Source: a virus (lineage: Duplodnaviria; Heunggongvirae; Uroviricota; Caudoviricetes). From it: 5,186 nucleotides of DNA. Below, in pieces: positions 1-5,186 of this stretch. The notes below the pieces were generated by a model. That model had not been told where the DNA came from. It worked only from the letters and a program-made list of their open reading frames with translations, and did not search any database. The first letter of the stretch is position 1, and each line of letters opens with the position of its first letter. A program made the translations under genes and the position numbers. The DNA lies in the IMG/VR virus record IMGVR_UViG_2541047819_000005; one strand, 5' to 3'.

Positions 1-834
1 GCATGGGCGTCAACGTGGCGCATCCCGCAATTTAAAACGGTTGGTCTGCCGACAATGGGGGCTTACCGTGAACTACGCAAATTGCCTCGCGGCGTCAGCA
101 TTGCTGATGAGTTTGACGAGCGCGTCGAGGCTGCACGCGCCGCCGCAGACAGTGGTGATTTTGCGTTGTATATCAGCGCGCAGGGTGGGGCAAATGTCCC
201 GCGCGATTGTCAGACTGTCAGGGTCGCCCGTAGCCCGTCGGATGACGTTAACGAGTATGAGGAAGAAGTCGAGAGAGTGGTCGGCATTTACGCGCCGCAT
301 CTCGGCGCGCGTCATATTCATATCACCAGAACGACGGACTGGCGCATTGTGCCGAAAGTGCCGGTCGTTGAGCCTTTGACGTTAAAAAGCGGCATCGCCG
401 CGCCTCGGAGTCCTGTCAATAACTGTGGAAAGGTCACCGGTGGTGATACTTCGTTACCGGCTCCCACACCTTCTGAGCACGCCGCAGCAGTGCTTAATCT
501 GGTTGATGACGGTGTTATCGAATGGAATGAGCCGGAGGTCGTGAAGGCGCTCAGGGGCGCATTAAAACACGGGCTGGGAACGCCAAATCGTCAGCAAAGA
601 AACGGAAGCCCGTTAAAACCGCATGAAATTGCACCATCGGCCAGACTGACCCGGCCGGAACGATTGCAAATCACCCGTATCCGCGTTGACCTTGCTCAGA
701 ACGGTATCAGGCCGCAGCGATGGGAGCTTGAGGCGCTGGCGCGTGGGGCAACCGTAAATTATGACGGGAAAAAATTCACGTATCCGGTCGCTGATGAGTG
801 GCCGGGATTCTCAACAGTAATGGAGTGGACATGA
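1..834 (+). CDS. Phage replication initiation endonuclease (P2 gpA-like), C-terminal portion; 5' end lies upstream of the window
   Basis: Frame 1 is open from position 1 to the TGA at 832-834 (the ORF track starts it at the first ATG, 55). GC is high (a sampled 60-nt line is about 63%). It sits immediately upstream of the DUF3850-like ORF and the variable locus, the position gene A occupies in P2-like phages. The assignment rests on synteny; no catalytic motif was verified in this fragment. Confidence 0.55.
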   Translation, partial: AWASTWRIPQFKTVGLPTMGAYRELRKLPRGVSIADEFDERVEAARAAADSGDFALYISAQGGANVPRDCQTVRVARSPSDDVNEYEEEVERVVGIYAPHLGARHIHITRTTDWRIVPKVPVVEPLTLKSGIAAPRSPVNNCGKVTGGDTSLPAPTPSEHAAAVLNLVDDGVIEWNEPEVVKALRGALKHGLGTPNRQQRNGSPLKPHEIAPSARLTRPERLQITRIRVDLAQNGIRPQRWELEALARGATVNYDGKKFTYPVADEWPGFSTVMEWT

Positions 835-1286
835 TGGCAAAAATTCACGAGGTAAAGCTGCACGCAAAATATTTCGACCTTGTGCTGGAAGGAAAGAAAC
901 GCGCAGAGTTTAGGAAAAATGACCGTAATTATGAGCACGGGGACACGTTGATTTTGCATGAATGGGTGCAGGGTGTGTATACGGGGCGAAAGGTTGAAGC
1001 CCGGATAACAGATGTTACTGACCTGTCAGACTGGCTGGAAGATTATGTCTTGCTAAGTATTGAGCTGCTTAATACAGGCGCATATGAGATTGTGAACTGG
1101 AAAGAACTTAGTGAGCGTGGTCTGGTATTCAGAATTAATCATGAAATTATGCATCAGCTCGGCCTTGCTGTTATGTATGAACCAGAGACGGGGATGTCTG
1201 GCGGGGCAATGGTTGCCACGGATGGAGCATGGAACTATTCAGATGAACAGATGGAGCGTGCACAGCAAAACGGGTGGCTTGGATAA
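831..1286 (+). CDS. DUF3850/ASCH-like (PUA-fold) domain protein with a C-terminal extension of about 80 aa
   Basis: The ATG at 831 overlaps the upstream stop (ATGA, 831-834). GGAG at 822-825 gives a Shine-Dalgarno 5 nt upstream. The N-terminal sequence MMAKIHEVKLHAKYFDLVLEGKKRAEFRKNDRNYEHGD matches my recollection of the DUF3850 consensus (KxxxExxxGxKxFExRKNDRxxxxGD). 151 codons, stop TAA at 1284-1286. Confidence 0.6.
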   Translation: MMAKIHEVKLHAKYFDLVLEGKKRAEFRKNDRNYEHGDTLILHEWVQGVYTGRKVEARITDVTDLSDWLEDYVLLSIELLNTGAYEIVNWKELSERGLVFRINHEIMHQLGLAVMYEPETGMSGGAMVATDGAWNYSDEQMERAQQNGWLG

Positions 1287-1339
1287 TGCACAGAATACCA
1301 GGCGAGATACCGCACCATAAAACTAAAAATATCAGGCTG

Positions 1340-1492
1340 ATGGCTATTGTTCAGCGTTTACAGCGGATTATGGTCAACGAAAATCTGACGCCCGATGAGC
1401 TGGTCGGGTGTGCCGAAATAGTCCGGGATAATTACGGGCGGCTTAACTATATCGGTCAGTCCAGAGTTGCGCCACCACCACGCAGACGATAG
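1340..1492 (+). CDS. Hypothetical small protein (about 50 aa); start uncertain (GTG 1274, ATG 1286 or ATG 1340)
   Basis: ORF co-oriented with and just downstream of the DUF3850-like gene. No convincing Shine-Dalgarno and no recognisable motif. Product MAIVQRLQRIMVNENLTPDELVGCAEIVRDNYGRLNYIGQSRVAPPPRRR. Confidence 0.3.
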   Translation: MAIVQRLQRIMVNENLTPDELVGCAEIVRDNYGRLNYIGQSRVAPPPRRR

Positions 1493-1715
1493 AGAACGCC
1501 GCCAGTCGTGAAACTTGTTTTCAGGGCTGGCGGGGTTGAACAACGAGCGAAGCGAGGCGTTAGTTGACAGACATATTTTTACTGCGTTGGTGCCGGTTTT
1601 TAACGGTTGAAAGGAGTTAGGTTGGAGAGCTAACAACTTACAAATATTCAAAAGTAAGCATCCTGTTGCTAACATGAGGTCGATTTTTTATGTGGATGAT
1701 GCAAAAAGGATAGCT
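1493..1715 (+). promoter_or_regulatory. Non-coding leader upstream of the cargo cassette; putative promoter region
   Basis: About 220 bp without a convincing ORF, where GC drops from phage-like to AT-rich. Perfect -35 hexamer TTGACA at 1564-1569 but no good -10 at 17 bp. Alternative weak pairs: TTGAAA 1606-1611 with TAACAA 1631-1636, and TTGCTA 1666-1671 with TATGTG 1689-1694. The exact promoter cannot be assigned by eye. Confidence 0.3.
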
Positions 1716-2447
1716 ATGGATACTATAATCGCTTTTCTATCACTCGCTTTTTTCGTTGCTTTCTTCATCGGGTTAATCAAGCCATCACTGGTGCGAATGC
1801 CAAACCGCAAACGTGCAAGTGCGGTTTATCTCGGAGGAGGTTTTGTATTGAGCATAATTGGTTCAATACTCTATCCAACAGAAAAAAGCCAGCCAGTTGA
1901 TAAAACTGAAACATCAACCGTTGCAGAACACAAAGTCCAAAAAACATTCGAATATGGGGAAAAAACACTCAAGGAATATCGGAACGAGTCAAAGAAAACA
2001 CGACACGATATTGTGAATAGTTACATTGATTTTAAGGAAGTTCCAGCCACCGCGTCAGATGCGTTTTATGCCTGCATGAGTGAGTATACATTTACCAAAG
2101 ATGATGAGTTGAAACTCGGTGATGTTCTTGGGTGGTGCTTTAATGATTATGAAAATGACTCGAATTCACTAAACAATAAAATCAATCTTGATACATTTCA
2201 GAGTAATTTTAGTGGTTGGGATGGTTCTTATCGTCCATTGGAAAAACTAATTAAAGATAATATGAACGATGATTCATCTTATAAACATGTGTCAACGGTA
2301 TATCATCTGGTTTTGAATAAAGACCCGTACGCTATTGTGAAAACTACGTTTCGCGGTACTAATGCTTATGGTGGAGTGGTTAAGCAGACTATAGCTGCGC
2401 GCGTCGACATACGAACGGGAGAGGTTGTATCAATATTAGATAATTGA
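1716..2447 (+). CDS. Cargo gene 1: small integral membrane protein with two N-terminal TM helices and a C-terminal domain of about 190 aa of unknown function
   Basis: ATG at 1716 preceded by AAAGGA (1705-1710), spacer 5 nt. Two hydrophobic segments: TIIAFLSLAFFVAFFIGLI (res 3-21) and AVYLGGGFVLSIIGSILY (res 36-53), separated by a basic loop KPSLVRMPNRKRAS. AT-rich (a sampled line is about 37% GC). 243 aa, stop at 2445-2447. The ORF track's start at 1674 has no Shine-Dalgarno. Confidence 0.75.
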   Translation: MDTIIAFLSLAFFVAFFIGLIKPSLVRMPNRKRASAVYLGGGFVLSIIGSILYPTEKSQPVDKTETSTVAEHKVQKTFEYGEKTLKEYRNESKKTRHDIVNSYIDFKEVPATASDAFYACMSEYTFTKDDELKLGDVLGWCFNDYENDSNSLNNKINLDTFQSNFSGWDGSYRPLEKLIKDNMNDDSSYKHVSTVYHLVLNKDPYAIVKTTFRGTNAYGGVVKQTIAARVDIRTGEVVSILDN

Positions 2448-2457
2448 TTATAAGCAA

Positions 2458-2484
2458 TGAGTGCTGAATGGTTTTCTGCACTCA
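2458..2484 (+). repeat. Intergenic imperfect inverted repeat (hairpin) between the two cargo genes
   Basis: TGAGTGC (2458-2464) pairs with GCACTCA (2478-2484), a 7-bp perfect stem with a further 3 bp of inner pairing and a 5-nt loop. Immediately followed by TATAAAT (2485-2491) and the Shine-Dalgarno AGGTGA of gene 2. Confidence 0.4.
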
Positions 2485-2512
2485 TATAAATATGAAATTT
2501 TTAGGTGATGTA

Positions 2513-3448
2513 ATGGAATATCAACTGGATTTACAAGAGAATGCTATTGATAGTTTTAATGAAGCTTTAGCAAAGTATGAGTTAGGGCAGAGAGGAGAAT
2601 TGCGGCAATATAAATTTGCTATCTTGCATTTGTCACATTTTCTTGAGCTGGTGTTGAAGTTATATATTGTTACAGTAGATGAAAATTTACTGTATTCCGA
2701 TTGCTATAAACAAATAGCTACAAGAGCAAAGCGAGAATCAATCAGTCTTTTAGACGCATATAATAAAATTATCGAGGATGGCGTTGATTTAGGAAGGTTC
2801 ATTGAAGGGAAATCTAGGCCATATACGATAACCTTAGATCAGGCACTAAACTTTGCTAAGTGTGAGAAATGTGGCATAACTGGGGTTGATTTTGTAGATA
2901 TTGATTTTTGTAATGATATAGCTTGGATAAAGAATTTAAGAAATGATATTGAGCATTATCAATTCAGACTTACTCCTAAAGACGCGCGCTTGTGTATTGG
3001 ACGCCTAGTCCGGGGGGTAGCTGAGTTTATTGATATCTTCGATCTTTTTAATCTTGAAGATGAAGTCGGTGCAGATAACTTACAGATATTTCAAACTTTA
3101 GCTGATGAATACTCTCATAGGCTCTCTGAAGCCAAGAAAGAAGTTGAAGAAAGAGAGGCTGAAGCTTTTTATGGGGTTAGGCATAAATTTTATGAATTGG
3201 TCGATTGGAAAGTTTATGAATGTCCTGAGTGTTCTAACGACACAATGATTCCCTCTGATGAGTCTTCTACGGGTTACAAATGCACTTTTTGTCAGAATGA
3301 AGATAGTGATGATATTGATGTTGCTTGCGATTGTTGTGGTGCGCAGGCTCCCAGCAGCGAAATGAGCATTTGGCCAATGGATGATGGTGATGTTGAGTAT
3401 CGTTGTTACTACTGTTCAGGGCAGTATCAGGCAGATAAAGACTTTTAA
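2513..3448 (+). CDS. Cargo gene 2: predicted HEPN-like (Rx4H motif) helical domain protein with two C-terminal CxxC...CxxC zinc ribbons; candidate RNase-type effector
   Basis: ATG at 2513 preceded by AGGTGA (2501-2506). 311 aa. Motif R143-N-D-I-E-H148 (nt 2939-2956) fits the HEPN Rx4-6H signature, with the typical N after R. Acidic/basic coiled-coil-like segment EAKKEVEEREAEAF. Zinc ribbon 1: C237-x2-C240...C257-x2-C260 (nt 3221-3292). Zinc ribbon 2: C272/C274/C275...C298-x2-C301 (nt 3326-3415). Very AT-rich (a sampled line is about 27% GC). Upstream in-frame ATGs at 2468 and 2492 lack a Shine-Dalgarno, and 2468 lies inside the hairpin. Confidence 0.8.
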   Translation: MEYQLDLQENAIDSFNEALAKYELGQRGELRQYKFAILHLSHFLELVLKLYIVTVDENLLYSDCYKQIATRAKRESISLLDAYNKIIEDGVDLGRFIEGKSRPYTITLDQALNFAKCEKCGITGVDFVDIDFCNDIAWIKNLRNDIEHYQFRLTPKDARLCIGRLVRGVAEFIDIFDLFNLEDEVGADNLQIFQTLADEYSHRLSEAKKEVEEREAEAFYGVRHKFYELVDWKVYECPECSNDTMIPSDESSTGYKCTFCQNEDSDDIDVACDCCGAQAPSSEMSIWPMDDGDVEYRCYYCSGQYQADKDF

Positions 3449-3530
3449 TTTGCTGTTAACTGCTAGGGATGAAGTTAAAAATCATAGGGCTCATCGTTAA
3501 TTTATACTCAAATTTGTTTGATTTCTGCAT

Positions 3531-3554
3531 TGCATACAAAAGATGCATTTTTTT
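3531..3554 (+). terminator. Weak candidate intrinsic terminator downstream of the cargo cassette
   Basis: TGCAT (3531-3535), loop ACAAAAG, ATGCA (3543-3547), followed by a T7 run (3548-3554). The stem is only 5 bp and AT-rich, so confidence is low. Confidence 0.25.
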
Positions 3555-3573
3555 GCATGCGTCAGACGTGCTT

Positions 3574-3597
3574 GCTCTGACAGTATATTGTCAGAGC
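3574..3597. repeat. Perfect 9-bp inverted repeat with 6-nt spacer (GCTCTGACA-gtatat-TGTCAGAGC), about 60 bp from cos
   Basis: Read directly: 3574-3582 is the exact reverse complement of 3589-3597. No adjacent T-run, so it looks more like a protein-binding palindrome or packaging-region element than a terminator. Confidence 0.5.
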
Positions 3598-3631
3598 TGG
3601 CGCGAATCTGGATTGTTCGTGCAACTGCATT

Positions 3632-3655
3632 AAAACCGCCCCATGAAGCGGGCGG
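3632..3655 (-). terminator. Hairpin plus T4 abutting cos; putative intrinsic terminator for minus-strand read-through (or structural part of the cos region)
   Basis: Plus strand reads AAAA-CCGCCC-catgaagc-GGGCGG. On the minus strand this is a 6-bp GC stem followed by TTTTAAT. It directly abuts the cos 19-mer. Confidence 0.4.
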
Positions 3656-3673
3656 GCGAGGCGGGGAAAGCAC
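3655..3673. other. cos: P2-type cohesive-end site (cos), 19-nt GGCGAGGCGGGGAAAGCAC, joined as in prophage or circular form
   Basis: Exact match to the 19-nt P2 cohesive-end sequence as I recall it from the literature. Position is consistent: about 160-180 bp from the stop of portal gene Q and adjacent to the variable locus. Confidence 0.7.
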
Positions 3674-3834: not shown

Positions 3835-4869
3835 TCAGCCGTTGTCAGTGTCCAGTGAGTAGTTTTTAAAGCGGATGACCTCCTGACCGAGCCAGCCGTT
3901 TATCTCGCGGATCCTGTCCTGTAACGGGATAAGCTCATTGCGGACAAAGACCTTTGCCACTTTCTCAATATCGCCCAGCGACCCGACGTTCTCCGGCTTG
4001 CCGCCCATCAACTGAAAGGGGATGCGGTGCGCGTCCAGCAGGTCAGCGGCGCTGGATTTTTTGATATTAAAAAAATCGTCCTTTGTCGCCACTTCACTGA
4101 GCGGGATAATTTTGATGCCGTCTGGCTTTCCCTGTGGGGCATAGAGAAACAGATTTTTAAAGTTATTGCGGCCTTTCGAATTAGCCATGTTTTCGCGGAG
4201 TGAGTCAATGTAATCGCGATCCTGCAATGCGTCGGTGATATACATGATGTATCCGGCATGAGCGCCGTTTTCGTAATACTTGCGGCGGAACAGCGTGGCC
4301 GACTCATTCAGCCAGGCAGAGTTAAGGGCGCTGAGATATTCCGGCAGGCCGTACAGCTCCTGATTAATATCCGGCTCCAGCAGGTGAAACACGGAGCCGG
4401 GCGTGAAAGGTGTCGGCTCGTTGAAGGACGGCACCCACCAGTAAACATCCTCTTCCACACCACGGCGGGTATATTTTGCCGGTGAGGTTTCCAGTCTGAT
4501 GACCTTACCGGTGGTGCTGTAACGCTTTTCCAGAAACGCATTACCGAACACCAGAAAATCCAGCACAAAGCGGCTGAAATCCTGCTGGGAAAGCCACGGG
4601 TGCGGAATAAACGTTGAAGCCAGAATATTACGTTTGACGTAAATCGGTGAGCTGTGATGTACGGCAGCACGCAGGCTTTTTGCCAGACCGGTAAAGCTGA
4701 CCGGTGGCTCATACCATCTGCCGTTACTGATGCACTCGACGTAATCCAGAATGTCACGGCGGTCGAGTACCGGCACCGGCTCACCAAAGGTGAATGCCTC
4801 CATTTTCGGGGCGCTGGCGGTCATTGTTTTCACCGCTGGCTGCGGTGTTTTCCCTTTTTTCTTGCTCAT
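3835..4869 (-). CDS. Q: Phage portal (capsid portal) protein, P2 gpQ
   Basis: 344-aa ORF. Sequence (MSKKKGKTPQPAVKTMTASAPKMEAFTFGEPVPVLDRRDILDYVECISNGRWYEPPVSF...) is near-identical to P2 gpQ as I recall it, and the 1035-bp length matches P2 Q. Shine-Dalgarno GGAG 8 nt upstream. The start overlaps the P stop (TGATG). Confidence 0.93.
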   Translation of the reverse strand: MSKKKGKTPQPAVKTMTASAPKMEAFTFGEPVPVLDRRDILDYVECISNGRWYEPPVSFTGLAKSLRAAVHHSSPIYVKRNILASTFIPHPWLSQQDFSRFVLDFLVFGNAFLEKRYSTTGKVIRLETSPAKYTRRGVEEDVYWWVPSFNEPTPFTPGSVFHLLEPDINQELYGLPEYLSALNSAWLNESATLFRRKYYENGAHAGYIMYITDALQDRDYIDSLRENMANSKGRNNFKNLFLYAPQGKPDGIKIIPLSEVATKDDFFNIKKSSAADLLDAHRIPFQLMGGKPENVGSLGDIEKVAKVFVRNELIPLQDRIREINGWLGQEVIRFKNYSLDTDNG

Positions 4870-5186
4870 CAGTAAAACTCCAGAATGGTGGATGTCAGCG
4901 GGGTGCTGATACCGGCGGTGAGTGGCTCATTTAACAGGGCGTGCATGGTCGCCCAGGCGAGGTCGGCGTGGCTGGCTTCCTCGCTGCGGCTGGCCTCATA
5001 GGTGGCACTGCGTCCGCTGCTGGTCATGGTCTTGCGGATAGCCATAAACGAGCTGGTGATGTCGGTGGCGCTGACGTCATATTCCAGACAGCCACGGCGG
5101 ATAACGTCTTTGGCCTTGAGCACCATTGCGGTTTTCATTTCCGGCGTGTAGCGGATGTCGCGCGCGGCGGGATAGAACGAGCGCAC
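4869..5186 (-). CDS. P: Terminase large (ATPase) subunit, P2 gpP, C-terminal 105 codons; gene continues beyond the window end
   Basis: Open frame runs off the window edge (the track's initial M is an in-frame GTG at the boundary, not a real start). Ends ...TSTILEFY with TGA overlapping the Q ATG by 1 nt, as in the P2 P-Q arrangement. High GC, phage-like. Confidence 0.85.
   Translation of the reverse strand: MRSFYPAARDIRYTPEMKTAMVLKAKDVIRRGCLEYDVSATDITSSFMAIRKTMTSSGRSATYEASRSEEASHADLAWATMHALLNEPLTAGISTPLTSTILEFY

What the first reader, a model, noticed from the sequence alone, without database searches (positions are those of the whole stretch)
1600..3600. AT-rich two-gene cargo cassette in the P2 A-to-cos defence hotspot: candidate undescribed anti-phage system
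Between the replication module (A, DUF3850-like ORF) and cos/Q, where P2 carries tin and old, sits a roughly 2 kb block of much lower GC than its flanks (sampled lines about 27-37% versus about 63%). It encodes two co-oriented genes 65 bp apart: a two-TM membrane protein and a HEPN-like/zinc-ribbon protein. Foreign composition, prophage-hotspot location and a membrane-protein plus predicted-nuclease pairing are all typical of defence or abortive-infection modules. I do not recognise the pair as any described system, though some families, e.g. PD-T4/PD-lambda-type, I could not exclude by eye.
Basis: partly seen in the sequence, partly recalled or inferred. Interest (0 to 1): 0.85.

Follow-up and report, generated by a model that had tools for sequence, protein, structure and literature searches.

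The report
Two independent cargo genes, not a pair
The AT-rich block in this P2-like prophage holds two unrelated stand-alone cargo genes that happen to be neighbours: an uncharacterised membrane-anchored, probably periplasmic protein, and a HEPN-RNase/zinc-ribbon protein from a family already listed as a phage-defence candidate, so it is an ordinary hotspot filling, not a new two-gene system.

Summary
Window 1566-3619 is AT-rich (37.5% GC against 53-55% in the flanks). It lies between P2 gene A/DUF3850 and cos (3655-3673)/Q. It carries two co-oriented genes 65 bp apart: g1 (1716-2447, 243 aa, 2 TM) and g2 (2513-3448, 311 aa).

The "undescribed two-gene system" reading does not hold. g1 occurs in 84 of 5426 complete E. 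coli genomes but is followed by g2 in only one. In 85 P2-like loci, g1 is followed by at least 15 unrelated cargoes, including the autonomous AbiP2, or by nothing. Homology with other E. coli prophages stops at the g1 stop codon. g2 homologues outside P2-like phages never have g1 or any other conserved neighbour, and some sit beside Shedu, Zorya or Lamassu genes. Rousset et al. 2022 already list the genes as two separate single-gene entries, with no sign that either was tested.

g1 is an Enterobacterales-only orphan with an HdeA-like domain, most likely periplasmic. Its function is unknown; superinfection exclusion is my guess.

Verdict: a new member of a known kind, of modest interest.

The parts
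55..834 (+). C-terminal part of P2 gpA (replication endonuclease), cut by the window start. Left conserved flank.
   Evidence: RefSeq annotation of the 99.9% identical GN04171 locus. Cluster c2 is present in 78 of 85 related loci.
834..1286 (+). DUF3850/ASCH + DUF7415 protein (150 aa as annotated; the mechanical ORF runs from 798).
   Evidence: Pfam PF12961 1e-17, PF24187 2e-14, PF04266 2e-10. Annotation.
1286..1492 (+). 68-aa conserved hypothetical protein (phrog_11386).
1495..1563 (.). About 65-bp boundary element with a 7-bp inverted repeat (CCGCCAG...CTGGCGG). It is the last stretch shared with P2, Wphi and Yersinia P2-likes before the hotspot. In S164 and Klebsiella-type loci a copy lies downstream of g1.
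   Evidence: sequence.
1566..3619 (.). AT-rich cargo block (37.5% GC) made of two stacked modules: the g1 module (1566-2448) and the swappable slot (2449-3619).
1716..2447 (+). g1: 243-aa protein with an N-terminal 2-TM hairpin (residues 2-21 and 31-52, with the positively charged loop KPSLVRMPNRKRASA between them). A disordered linker follows, then an HdeA-like helical domain with invariant C120 and C141, then a C-terminal helix plus 4-strand sheet domain. Predicted periplasmic.
2457..2485 (+). Intergenic hairpin (8-bp perfect stem ATGAGTGC/GCACTCAT) at the 5' edge of the g2 cassette. Not statistically exceptional.
   Evidence: -14.4 kcal/mol, z -1.4. No terminator called here.
2513..3448 (+). 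g2: 311-aa HEPN-RNase-like protein. HEPN domain at about residues 1-178, with a variable insert at 56-104. Helical linker 179-230. Zinc ribbon 1 (C237, C240, C257, C260). Zinc ribbon 2 (C272, C275, C298, C301).
2939..2956 (+). Codons for the predicted catalytic Rx4H motif of g2: R143-N-D-I-E-H148.
   Evidence: H148 and I146 are invariant; R143, N144 and E147 are at least 90% conserved in 49 homologues.
3567..3604 (.). Palindrome (core CTCTGACA-GTATAT-TGTCAGAG) at the right end of the slot.
   Evidence: I1; sequence.
3655..3673 (+). P2/P4-type cos 19-mer GGCGAGGCGGGGAAAGCAC.
   Evidence: 1 match, 0 expected. The same string occurs in the P4 sequences of Rousset Table S2. Its identity as the cohesive end is from my own knowledge.
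3835..4869 (-). Portal protein gpQ. Right conserved flank.
   Evidence: Pfam Phage_portal 4e-14. Annotation.
4869..5186 (-). C-terminal part of terminase gpP, cut by the window end.
   Evidence: Pfam Terminase_6C 4e-20.

Best explanation
The block is a stack of two autonomous single-gene cargo modules in the P2 gpA-gpQ hotspot. It is not a two-component system.

g2 (2513-3448) is a stand-alone HEPN ribonuclease-type immunity protein of the DUF3644-HEPN + C-terminal zinc-ribbon kind (PADLOC family PDC-S64, architecture of HEC-08). The proposed mechanism is inferred by analogy with HEC-08, RAZR/PD-T7-4 and other HEPN defences. The protein is made in the lysogen in an inactive state. A phage-derived (or other invading-element) cue is sensed through the non-catalytic parts: the tandem zinc ribbons and/or the variable insert at residues 56-104. 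This switches on the composite Rx4H site (R143/H148). RNA is then cleaved, translation stops, and the infected cell arrests or dies before the phage completes its cycle.

g1 (1716-2447) is a separate accessory gene. It encodes an inner-membrane-anchored protein whose roughly 190-residue C-terminal part (an HdeA-like domain with a conserved Cys pair, plus a small alpha/beta domain) most likely faces the periplasm. My best guess for its role is envelope-level superinfection exclusion or lysogenic conversion, acting on its own.

Shown: gene structure, folds, motif conservation, independent distribution of the two genes, recombination junction, and defence-type neighbourhoods.

Inferred: RNase activity, trigger, abortive outcome, g1 topology and g1 role.
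For: Independence of the two genes:
- Homology with IHE3034, P2_2H4, S164, P2_4A7b and L047 runs through window 1-2448 and resumes at about 3617-3620. The exchange junction therefore sits at the g1 stop codon.
- g1 is in 84 of 5426 complete E. coli genomes; g1 plus g2 is in 1.
- In 77 P2-like loci that hold both g1 and Q, the slot after g1 holds c12 (23), c18 (17), the g2 family (9), c36 (6), c55, c58, c65+c66 and others, or nothing (about 12 loci, with roughly 485 bp between g1 and Q).
- The slot fillers include AbiP2 (PADLOC 3e-162) and PDC-S31, which are single-gene units.
- In Photorhabdus, g1 sits alone beside ogr/gpD.
- g2 homologues in 23 genomes of Gamma- and Betaproteobacteria have no shared neighbour.
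- Homologues at 66-71% identity lie in a Klebsiella conjugative-element cargo region, beside a Pectobacterium filamentous prophage, and beside an RT gene.
- An E. coli paralogue lies in a tRNA-Ser island and on a plasmid.
- g1 is confined to Enterobacterales, whereas g2 is much wider.
- Rousset 2022 Table S5B curates the two genes as separate systems #12 and #126.

Nature of g2:
- AF2 pLDDT 90.5.
- RNxIEH is near-invariant and 8 Cys are conserved.
- 49 of 49 family members hit PDC-S64 (best 6e-32), 16-18 hit DUF3644, and 2 hit HEC-08 weakly.
- Neighbours of homologues include SduA, ZorA, LmuA/B, PD-Lambda-1, mad2 and PDC-S06.
- HEC-08 has a DUF3644 HEPN followed by zinc-finger-like domains, and its defence needs the Rx4-6H histidine.
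- RAZR shows how a zinc-finger/HEPN protein can be activated by phage protein rings.

Nature of g1:
- TM helices and a +5 charged loop.
- Invariant C120 and C141.
- BFVD hits to phage lipoproteins.
- dN/dS 0.05-0.07.
Against: - No experiment exists for either gene. Neither sequence appears in the tested-systems table of Rousset 2022, nor in the held supplements of Vassallo 2022 or DefensePredictor.
- The window protein itself does not reach DUF3644 or HEC-08 at E<=1. Its PDC-S64 match is partial: the best stretch is residues 19-101 of the 326-aa form.
- PDC-S64 is only a candidate.
- In g2 the zinc ribbon 1 is among the most conserved parts and the HEPN insert is the most variable. This is the opposite of RAZR, so a sensor role for the ribbons is uncertain.
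- The g1-g2 junction is collinear at 75-77% identity in Klebsiella-type phages (L079, L101). All 10 contexts shown for the exact E. coli g2 allele contain g1. The adjacency is therefore old within this phage lineage, and a functional interaction cannot be excluded.
- g1 topology rests on the positive-inside rule and on fold analogies. The HdeA match covers 66 residues at 5% identity.
Confidence: 0.72

Rival explanations
1. g1 and g2 form one two-gene abortive-infection system in which the HEPN/zinc-ribbon protein senses infection and the 2-TM protein is the membrane effector, or the reverse.
For: - The genes are co-oriented and 65 bp apart, with no strong terminator between them.
- The g1-g2 arrangement is kept, with its junction, in two lineages that differ by about 25% in DNA.
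- All 10 contexts shown for the exact g2 allele include g1.
Against: - g1 is followed by g2 in only 1 of 84 complete E. coli genomes and 9 of 77 P2-like loci.
- g1 also occurs alone, and with autonomous systems such as AbiP2.
- g2 homologues never have g1 or any conserved partner outside P2-likes.
- The two genes have different taxonomic ranges.
- The bulk of g1 is predicted periplasmic and globular, not a pore former.
Confidence: 0.06
2. g1 is a constant helper that works with whichever cargo follows it. For example, it could be an envelope sensor or regulator that potentiates several downstream effectors, giving a 'constant plus variable' architecture.
For: - g1 always sits immediately upstream of the variable slot.
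- The same set of slot fillers (c12, c18, g2) recurs with both the E. coli-type and the Klebsiella-type g1.
- Several slot fillers are themselves membrane proteins.
Against: - Slot fillers such as AbiP2, and the g2 family, function or occur without g1.
- g1 occurs with an empty slot in about 12 loci, and at a different prophage position in Photorhabdus.
- The pattern is what flanking-homology recombination at a hotspot produces (Moura de Sousa 2026).
Confidence: 0.07
3. g2 is directed mainly against plasmids or other mobile elements rather than phages (Ishtar-like clearance), or it acts as an addiction or competition module for the prophage.
For: - Ishtar proteins are monogenic, with an N-terminal HEPN (DUF4145 or DUF3644) and a C-terminal beta-rich domain, and they clear RP4.
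- g2 homologues ride on an ICE-like region, a plasmid and integrative islands.
Against: - g2-family motifs are absent from the Ishtar homologue table.
- hhalign to a listed Ishtar homologue gives only the RNxIEH motif, with probability 7%.
- HEC-08, which shares g2's HEPN-then-zinc-ribbon layout, is anti-phage.
- The P2 hotspot is dominated by anti-phage cargo.
Confidence: 0.12
4. g1 is a host-fitness lysogenic-conversion factor (for example a tethered periplasmic chaperone-like protein for envelope or acid stress) with no role in phage exclusion.
For: - The best structural matches are the acid-stress chaperones HdeA and HdeB, and YmgD.
- There is no PADLOC hit.
- P2 hotspots also carry non-defence cargo such as toxins and partition systems.
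Against: - The fold match is short with 5-16% identity.
- The position among defence cargo, and the prophage-only distribution, fit exclusion equally well.
- Nothing discriminates between the two roles computationally.
Confidence: 0.3

Closest known systems
PADLOC PDC-S64 (single-gene phage-defence candidate from 'guilt by embedding', Payne et al. 2024 preprint)
   Same: The window protein and all 49 aligned homologues match the PDC-S64 HMM (4e-17; best 6e-32). Like PDC-S64, g2 is a single gene found in or near other defence systems.
   Different: The match of the window protein is partial. PDC-S64 has never been tested. This copy sits in a P2-like prophage hotspot rather than embedded in BREX, DISARM or type I RM.
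HEC-08 (Hma-embedded candidate 08; validated anti-phage, Payne et al. 2024 preprint)
   Same: The order of parts is the same: an N-terminal DUF3644-type HEPN with an Rx4-6H motif, followed by C-terminal zinc-finger or zinc-ribbon-like domains. Both are single genes. The same PDB neighbour (SO_3166 HepT) is found for both.
   Different: Sequence relationship is remote. There is no HEC-08 hit for the window protein, and only 2 of 49 relatives hit at 5.5e-4. The activity of g2 is untested.
RAZR / PD-T7-4 (ring-activated zinc-finger RNase; Zhang et al., Nature 2026)
   Same: A single protein that combines a Cys4 zinc ribbon with a divergent HEPN RNase. It gives a worked example of how such a protein stays silent and is switched on by phage proteins.
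   Different: Domain order is reversed (ZFD N-terminal, DUF4145 HEPN C-terminal). g2 has two ribbons. No PD-T7-4 model appears among the PADLOC hits. [quoted passage not shown]
Ishtar (ist1/ist2, anti-conjugation HEPN proteins of A. baumannii; bioRxiv 2026)
   Same: Monogenic, with an N-terminal HEPN (DUF4145 or DUF3644), a C-terminal beta-rich domain and an RNxIEH-type motif. Found on MGEs and near defence genes.
   Different: No family-level similarity. No zinc ribbon is described for Ishtar. Its target is plasmid RP4.
Rousset et al. 2022 P2-hotspot catalogue, entries #12 ('2 TM', 210 loci) and #126 ('FdhE', 21 loci)
   Same: These entries are g1 and g2 themselves (near-identical sequences). 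This very locus is listed in Table S5A.
   Different: They are catalogue entries only. Neither sequence appears in the table of tested systems, and no function is assigned. The HEPN nature of #126 was not noted there (it carries only the Pfam label FdhE, from the Cys motifs).
Prophage superinfection-exclusion proteins of the envelope (T4 Imm/Sp, P22 SieA, HK97 gp15, Ltp/Llp/Cor lipoproteins), cited from my own knowledge
   Same: g1 is likewise a small prophage-encoded, membrane-tethered protein with its bulk outside the cytoplasm, carried as an accessory gene.
   Different: There is no sequence or convincing fold relationship to any of them. The comparison is an analogy of location only.

Membership tests
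Two-gene defence system (g1+g2 as one unit) | The two genes co-occur across genomes and mobile elements | tested here: not met
   g1 is followed by g2 in 1 of 84 g1-bearing complete E. coli genomes and 9 of 77 P2-like loci. g2 homologues in 23 other genomes, and in 5 further contexts, lack g1.
Two-gene defence system (g1+g2 as one unit) | The pair moves as one cassette (shared recombination boundaries) | tested here: not met
   Among E. coli prophages, homology ends at the g1 stop codon (2447/2448) and resumes at about 3617-3620. Only g2 is swapped.
HEPN superfamily | All-alpha HEPN fold | tested here: met
HEPN superfamily | Conserved Rx4-6H motif | tested here: met
   R143-N-D-I-E-H148. H148 is invariant and R143 is at least 90% conserved in 49 sequences.
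HEPN superfamily | RNase activity | not testable with these tools
   Needs biochemistry.
PADLOC PDC-S64 | Match to the PDC-S64 HMM | tested here: met
   E 4e-17 and 60 bits for the window protein. 49 of 49 homologues match, best 6e-32. The match of the window protein is partial.
PADLOC PDC-S64 | Stand-alone gene associated with defence loci | tested here: met
   No conserved neighbour. Neighbours include Shedu, Zorya, Lamassu, PD-Lambda-1, mad2 and PDC-S06 proteins.
HEC-08 | N-terminal DUF3644-type HEPN | tested here: inconclusive
   18 of 49 family members hit PF12358 (best 2e-7), but the window protein does not at E<=1.
HEC-08 | C-terminal zinc-finger or zinc-ribbon-like domains | tested here: met
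   Seven of the eight Cys positions are invariant or at least 90% conserved; the eighth (C301) varies in some homologues. They form two CxxC...CxxC ribbons with beta-hairpins in the model.
HEC-08 | Match to the HEC-08 HMM | tested here: not met
   No hit for the window protein at E<=1. 2 of 49 relatives hit at 5.5e-4.
HEC-08 | Anti-phage activity dependent on the HEPN histidine | not testable with these tools
   Needs plaque assays with H148A.
RAZR / PD-T7-4 | N-terminal zinc-finger domain followed by a C-terminal DUF4145 HEPN | tested here: not met
   g2 has the HEPN first and two ribbons last. No PD-T7-4 or DUF4145 hit.
Ishtar | Membership of the ist1/ist2 homologue family | tested here: not met
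   g2-family motifs are absent from their Table S3. hhalign probability is 7%, covering the motif only.
Membrane pore or Abi effector (for g1) | Protein made mostly of TM helices, or a cytoplasmic activation domain | tested here: not met
   g1 has only a 2-TM hairpin at the N-terminus. About 190 residues form soluble domains with periplasmic-type folds and a conserved Cys pair.
Known defence families (for g1) | Hit to any PADLOC, Pfam or NCBIfam model | tested here: not met
   Zero hits. Only phrog_3403, 'unknown function'.

The most novel reading that the evidence does not exclude
g1 founds a new class of prophage-encoded, inner-membrane-tethered periplasmic exclusion or immunity proteins (HdeA-like plus small alpha/beta domain). 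It would act alone at the cell envelope, for example against genome entry of competing phages. It is present in about 1.5% of complete E. coli genomes and across Enterobacterales P2-like prophages. Alternatively, it could potentiate the variable cargo that always follows it.
Probability: 0.25. Interest if true: 0.55.

Novelty: new member of a known kind. Interest (0 to 1): 0.3.

Why it matters
The practical value is in what it rules out. Anyone cloning 1493-3600 as "one system" would be testing two unrelated genes at once.

g2 is a clean, compact E. coli representative (311 aa, confident model) of the HEPN-then-zinc-ribbon proteins. That group has one validated relative (HEC-08) and one mechanistically solved analogue (RAZR). 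Finding the g2 trigger would show whether phage-protein-driven activation applies beyond RAZR to a different HEPN and zinc-ribbon arrangement.

g1 is one of the commoner P2-hotspot genes with no assigned function (210 loci in Rousset's survey). Its predicted periplasmic location points to a different level of action from most hotspot cargo.

The locus also illustrates modular swapping at the P2 hotspot, with a junction at a stop codon.

Tried and rejected
- PADLOC, Pfam and NCBIfam scans of g1 gave nothing. A PDB sequence search with the g1 profile gave nothing.
- A profile search of the 5.8-billion-protein set with the g1 alignment showed no remote relative among the 120 of 200 hits listed; all listed are about 240 aa and mostly from Enterobacterales.
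- A BFVD fold search for g1 gave only weak lipoprotein-like hits. The afdb50 library was unavailable.
- A PDB sequence search with the g2 profile gave only chance zinc-finger hits, and no RAZR chain.
- I checked whether the alternative genes after g1 are diverged g2 relatives. They are not: no BLASTP similarity.
- I checked whether g2 is Ishtar. An A. baumannii g2 homologue carries accessions with the same prefix and in a similar range to ist1 (XZW64796.1, XZW67221.1), but it is not ist1 or ist2, and the family is not in their homologue table.
- I looked for g1 or g2 in the supplements of Vassallo 2022 and DefensePredictor, and in the tested-systems table of Rousset 2022. Both are absent. The supplements of Moura de Sousa 2026 are not held.
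- The intergenic hairpin 2457-2485 was considered as a terminator or regulator. It is not significant (z -1.4) and has no T-run.
- Rfam found no RNA family in the window.
- Literature searches for 'PDC-S64', 'orf97' and the P2 'TO region' gave nothing useful.
- Model coordinates are not exposed, so I could not measure the C120-C141 distance in g1.


Full report
**1. What is in the window**

The window is the replication-to-packaging junction of a P2-like prophage. E. coli GN04171 (NZ_CP095520) is 99.9% identical over 1500-3650 and is annotated as follows:
- replication endonuclease (gpA)
- DUF3850 protein
- a 68-aa hypothetical protein
- a 243-aa hypothetical protein
- a 311-aa hypothetical protein
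- portal
- terminase

Pfam confirms DUF3850/ASCH+DUF7415 (834-1286), Phage_portal (3835-4869, - strand) and Terminase_6C (4869-5186, - strand). The P2/P4 cos 19-mer lies at 3655-3673. P2, Wphi and the Yersinia P2-likes share only window 1500-1565 with the queried stretch, so the variable region starts at about 1566. Rousset et al. 2022 describe the gpA-gpQ interval as the P2 defence hotspot where P2 itself carries tin and old.

**2.

GC content is 37.5% for 1566-3619, against 52.8% and 55.3% for the flanks.

Two co-oriented genes lie in the block, 65 bp apart:
- g1 is at 1716-2447.
- g2 is at 2513-3448.
- Both have Shine-Dalgarno sequences and start where RefSeq and all homologues start.
- Both are under strong purifying selection: dN/dS is 0.04-0.08 against Klebsiella-type loci, with saturated dS.

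**3. The two genes are not a unit**

(a) DNA searches. The g1 half of the block is found at 93-97% identity in phages P2_2H4 ('Orf97'), 9W, S164 and P2_4A7b, and in many E. coli genomes. The match always ends at window 2434-2448.

Pairwise BLASTN shows homology with IHE3034, P2_2H4, S164, P2_4A7b and L047 through 1-2448, resuming at about 3617-3620. The swapped segment is therefore g2 with its own 65-bp leader and about 170-bp trailer. The left junction sits at the g1 stop codon.

(b) Counts. g1 is in 84 of 5426 complete E. coli genomes. The full block is in one.

(c) Context of g1. I examined 85 P2-like loci: 80 from IMG/VR, the window and four annotated records. In 84 of them g1 directly follows gpA and a small gene (DUF3850 or another). 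In the 77 loci that also hold Q, the slot between g1 and Q contains:

| Slot content | Loci |
|---|---|
| 205-244 aa 2-TM protein (c12) | 23 |
| 260-266 aa protein (c18) | 17 |
| g2 family | 9 |
| unrelated 311-aa protein (c36) | 6 |
| proteins of 429, 297, 301, 313 or 518 aa, or a two-gene set | a few each |
| nothing (about 485 bp to Q) | about 12 |

These proteins are unrelated to g2 by BLASTP.

PADLOC identifies the 518-aa filler as AbiP2 (3e-162). It identifies the 301-aa filler and the Serratia 322-aa protein as PDC-S31. These are single-gene units.

In Photorhabdus, g1 sits alone at the other end of a P2-like prophage, next to ogr and gpD.

(d) Context of g2.
- A pattern scan of one genome per species found 23 full-length homologues (36-67% identity) in Halomonas, Alteromonas, Shewanella, Vibrio, Psychrobacter, Sulfuriferula, Methylobacter and others.
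- All-against-all BLASTP of the ORFs within 6 kb found no neighbour family shared by more than two loci, and none resembling g1.
- Homologues at 66-71% identity lie in three further settings: among TraG/DtrJ conjugation genes with a PIN protein and an Eco57I-type methylase in Klebsiella, beside a Zot/secretin filamentous prophage and toxin-antitoxin genes in Pectobacterium, and beside a reverse transcriptase in a metagenome.
- A 305-aa E. coli paralogue sits in a tRNA-Ser integrative island and on plasmid pMTY18781-4.

(e) Taxonomic range. g1 is limited to Enterobacterales. g2 spans Gamma- and Betaproteobacteria.

(f) Prior curation. Rousset et al. 2022 list this locus (NZ_KE699798) in Table S5A. 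In Table S5B they curate g1 as single-gene system #12 ('2 TM', 210 loci) and g2 as single-gene system #126 ('FdhE', 21 loci). Neither sequence appears in their table of tested systems.

The counter-evidence is limited. The g1-g2 junction is collinear at 75-77% DNA identity in some Klebsiella-type phages. The exact E. coli g2 allele was always found next to g1, in 10 of 10 contexts shown, all the same prophage type. This shows that the adjacency is old within one phage lineage. It does not show that the genes depend on each other. The c12 and c18 fillers show the same trans-lineage pattern.

**4. What g2 is**

Forty-nine homologues align over the full length.

| Feature | Residues |
|---|---|
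| Invariant or nearly invariant, N-terminal helices | N10, D13, S14, E17, K34, F35, E45, K49 |
| Rx4H motif | R143-N144-x-I146-E147-H148 |
| Zinc ribbon 1 | C237, C240, C257, C260 |
| Zinc ribbon 2 | C272, C275, C298 (C301 less conserved) |

By sequence, the window protein matches only PADLOC PDC-S64 (4e-17) and, weakly, a CARF-HEPN model over the motif. Across the family:
- 49 of 49 hit PDC-S64.
- 16-18 hit DUF3644 (PF12358), which Anantharaman et al. 2013 place in the HEPN superfamily.
- 9 hit PDC-S19.
- 2 hit HEC-08 weakly.

PDC systems are untested candidates found embedded in BREX, DISARM and type I RM systems. [quoted passage not shown] It protects against phages, and the histidine of its Rx4-6H motif is required.

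Among 120 neighbours of g2 homologues, matches at E<=1e-5 include SduA (2 proteins), ZorA (2), mad2 (2), LmuA, LmuB, PD-Lambda-1 and PDC-S06. Some copies therefore sit in defence islands.

**5. How g2 probably works**

Shown: a HEPN fold with an intact, conserved catalytic motif fused to two conserved zinc ribbons; a single-gene mobile unit; a defence-type neighbourhood.

Inferred: it is an RNase held inactive until an invader is sensed. Activation leads to RNA cleavage and translation arrest, that is, abortive infection.

The best-worked analogue is RAZR (PD-T7-4). This zinc-finger/HEPN protein is non-toxic alone. It assembles around rings of phage portal or Erf-like proteins and then cleaves RNA non-specifically. 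g2 is not a RAZR family member:
- The domain order is reversed.
- There is no DUF4145 or PD-T7-4 hit.
- The variability pattern differs. In g2 the insert at residues 56-104 of the HEPN domain is the most variable part and is absent from the roughly 275-aa homologues, while ribbon 1 is among the most conserved. In RAZR the zinc-finger domain is the most variable part and sets specificity.

Specificity in g2 may therefore lie in the insert or the C-terminal tail. The ribbons may bind a conserved ligand or mediate assembly.

An anti-plasmid role like that of the Ishtar HEPN proteins cannot be excluded, but g2 is not in that family.

**6. What g1 is**

g1 has no hit in Pfam, NCBIfam, PADLOC or PDB sequences. 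Its only match is phrog_3403, 'unknown function'. All relatives are about 240 aa.

The alignment and model (pLDDT 80.8) show:
- two TM helices, residues 2-21 and 31-52, joined by a loop with five Lys/Arg
- a disordered linker, residues 56-73
- a helical domain, residues 85-147, with invariant C120 and C141
- a helix plus four-strand sheet, residues 173-241

By the positive-inside rule (established knowledge), the loop is cytoplasmic and the C-terminal 190 residues are periplasmic.

This is not the anatomy of a pore-forming Abi effector. I propose a stand-alone envelope function. Superinfection exclusion and host-fitness conversion are roughly equally likely and cannot be separated computationally.

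**7. Comparison with known systems, and novelty**

- g2 is a new, untested member of a known kind: a stand-alone HEPN RNase with zinc ribbons, in family PDC-S64, with the architecture of HEC-08.
- g1 is an uncharacterised but already catalogued hotspot gene.
- The pair is an accident of hotspot stacking. This fits the reports that many P2 hotspots hold more than one system and that cargo is swapped rapidly by recombination.

**8. Verdict**

Interest is modest at 0.3. The most novel reading still open is that g1 is a new periplasmic exclusion protein or a general helper for slot cargo.

Noticed in passing
window 1495-1563; L002 3972-4036; L064 and L068 5747-5815: A roughly 65-bp element with an inverted repeat (CCGCCAG...CTGGCGG) marks the left edge of the hotspot and is shared with P2 and Wphi. 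In S164 a second copy lies just downstream of g1. In Klebsiella-type loci the only copy lies downstream of g1. The g1 module can therefore sit on either side of it. It may be a recombination joint or a transcription signal.
   Followed up: partly
L081 5786-7339 (- strand), downstream of a g1 homologue: A 518-aa reverse transcriptase matching PADLOC AbiP2 (3e-162) occupies the same slot as g2. L094 and Serratia L115 carry PDC-S31 candidates there.
   Followed up: yes
L088 5821-6759 (- strand): Another slot filler (313 aa) carries an RNDNFHEA motif (Rx4H) and may be a further HEPN protein. Its C-terminus resembles the sequence printed just before entry #12 in Rousset Table S5B. It has no PADLOC hit.
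   Followed up: partly
Slot after g1 in 40 loci (clusters c12 and c18; e.g. L002 4047-4694, L005 5060-5842): The two commonest partners of g1 are themselves uncharacterised membrane proteins. c12 is 205-244 aa with an N-terminal 2-TM hairpin. c18 is 260-266 aa with a C-terminal TM helix. Neither has a PADLOC hit.
   Followed up: partly
window 2468-3448 and cluster members P0251, P0253 and P0254: Some E. coli strains (e.g. HVH 69) carry g2 split into 152-179 aa pieces. PHROGs accordingly has separate families for the two halves (phrog_22563 and phrog_25835) as well as for the whole protein (phrog_20824). This suggests occasional pseudogenisation.
   Followed up: no
window 3567-3604: A 38-bp palindrome (core CTCTGACA GTATAT TGTCAGAG) lies between g2 and cos, at the right edge of the swapped segment. 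Its function is unknown.
   Followed up: no
window 834-1286: The gene after gpA fuses a DUF3850/ASCH (RNA-binding-type) domain with DUF7415. In Klebsiella-type relatives an unrelated 190-aa protein (c4) takes its place, so this position is also variable.
   Followed up: partly
L113 7001-7918 (E. coli Es_ST80) and L114 6001-6918 (plasmid pMTY18781-4): A 305-aa paralogue of g2 (65% DNA identity over the N-terminal half) is found in 23 complete E. coli genomes. It lies in a tRNA-Ser integrative island with RepL and H-NS-like genes, and once on a plasmid.
   Followed up: partly
L030, L032 (Acinetobacter) and L031 (Rheinheimera), about residues 222-301 of g2: The zinc-ribbon part of g2 alone matches at 51-54% identity in proteins whose N-terminal part does not match. 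This suggests the double ribbon is a module reused with other domains.
   Followed up: no
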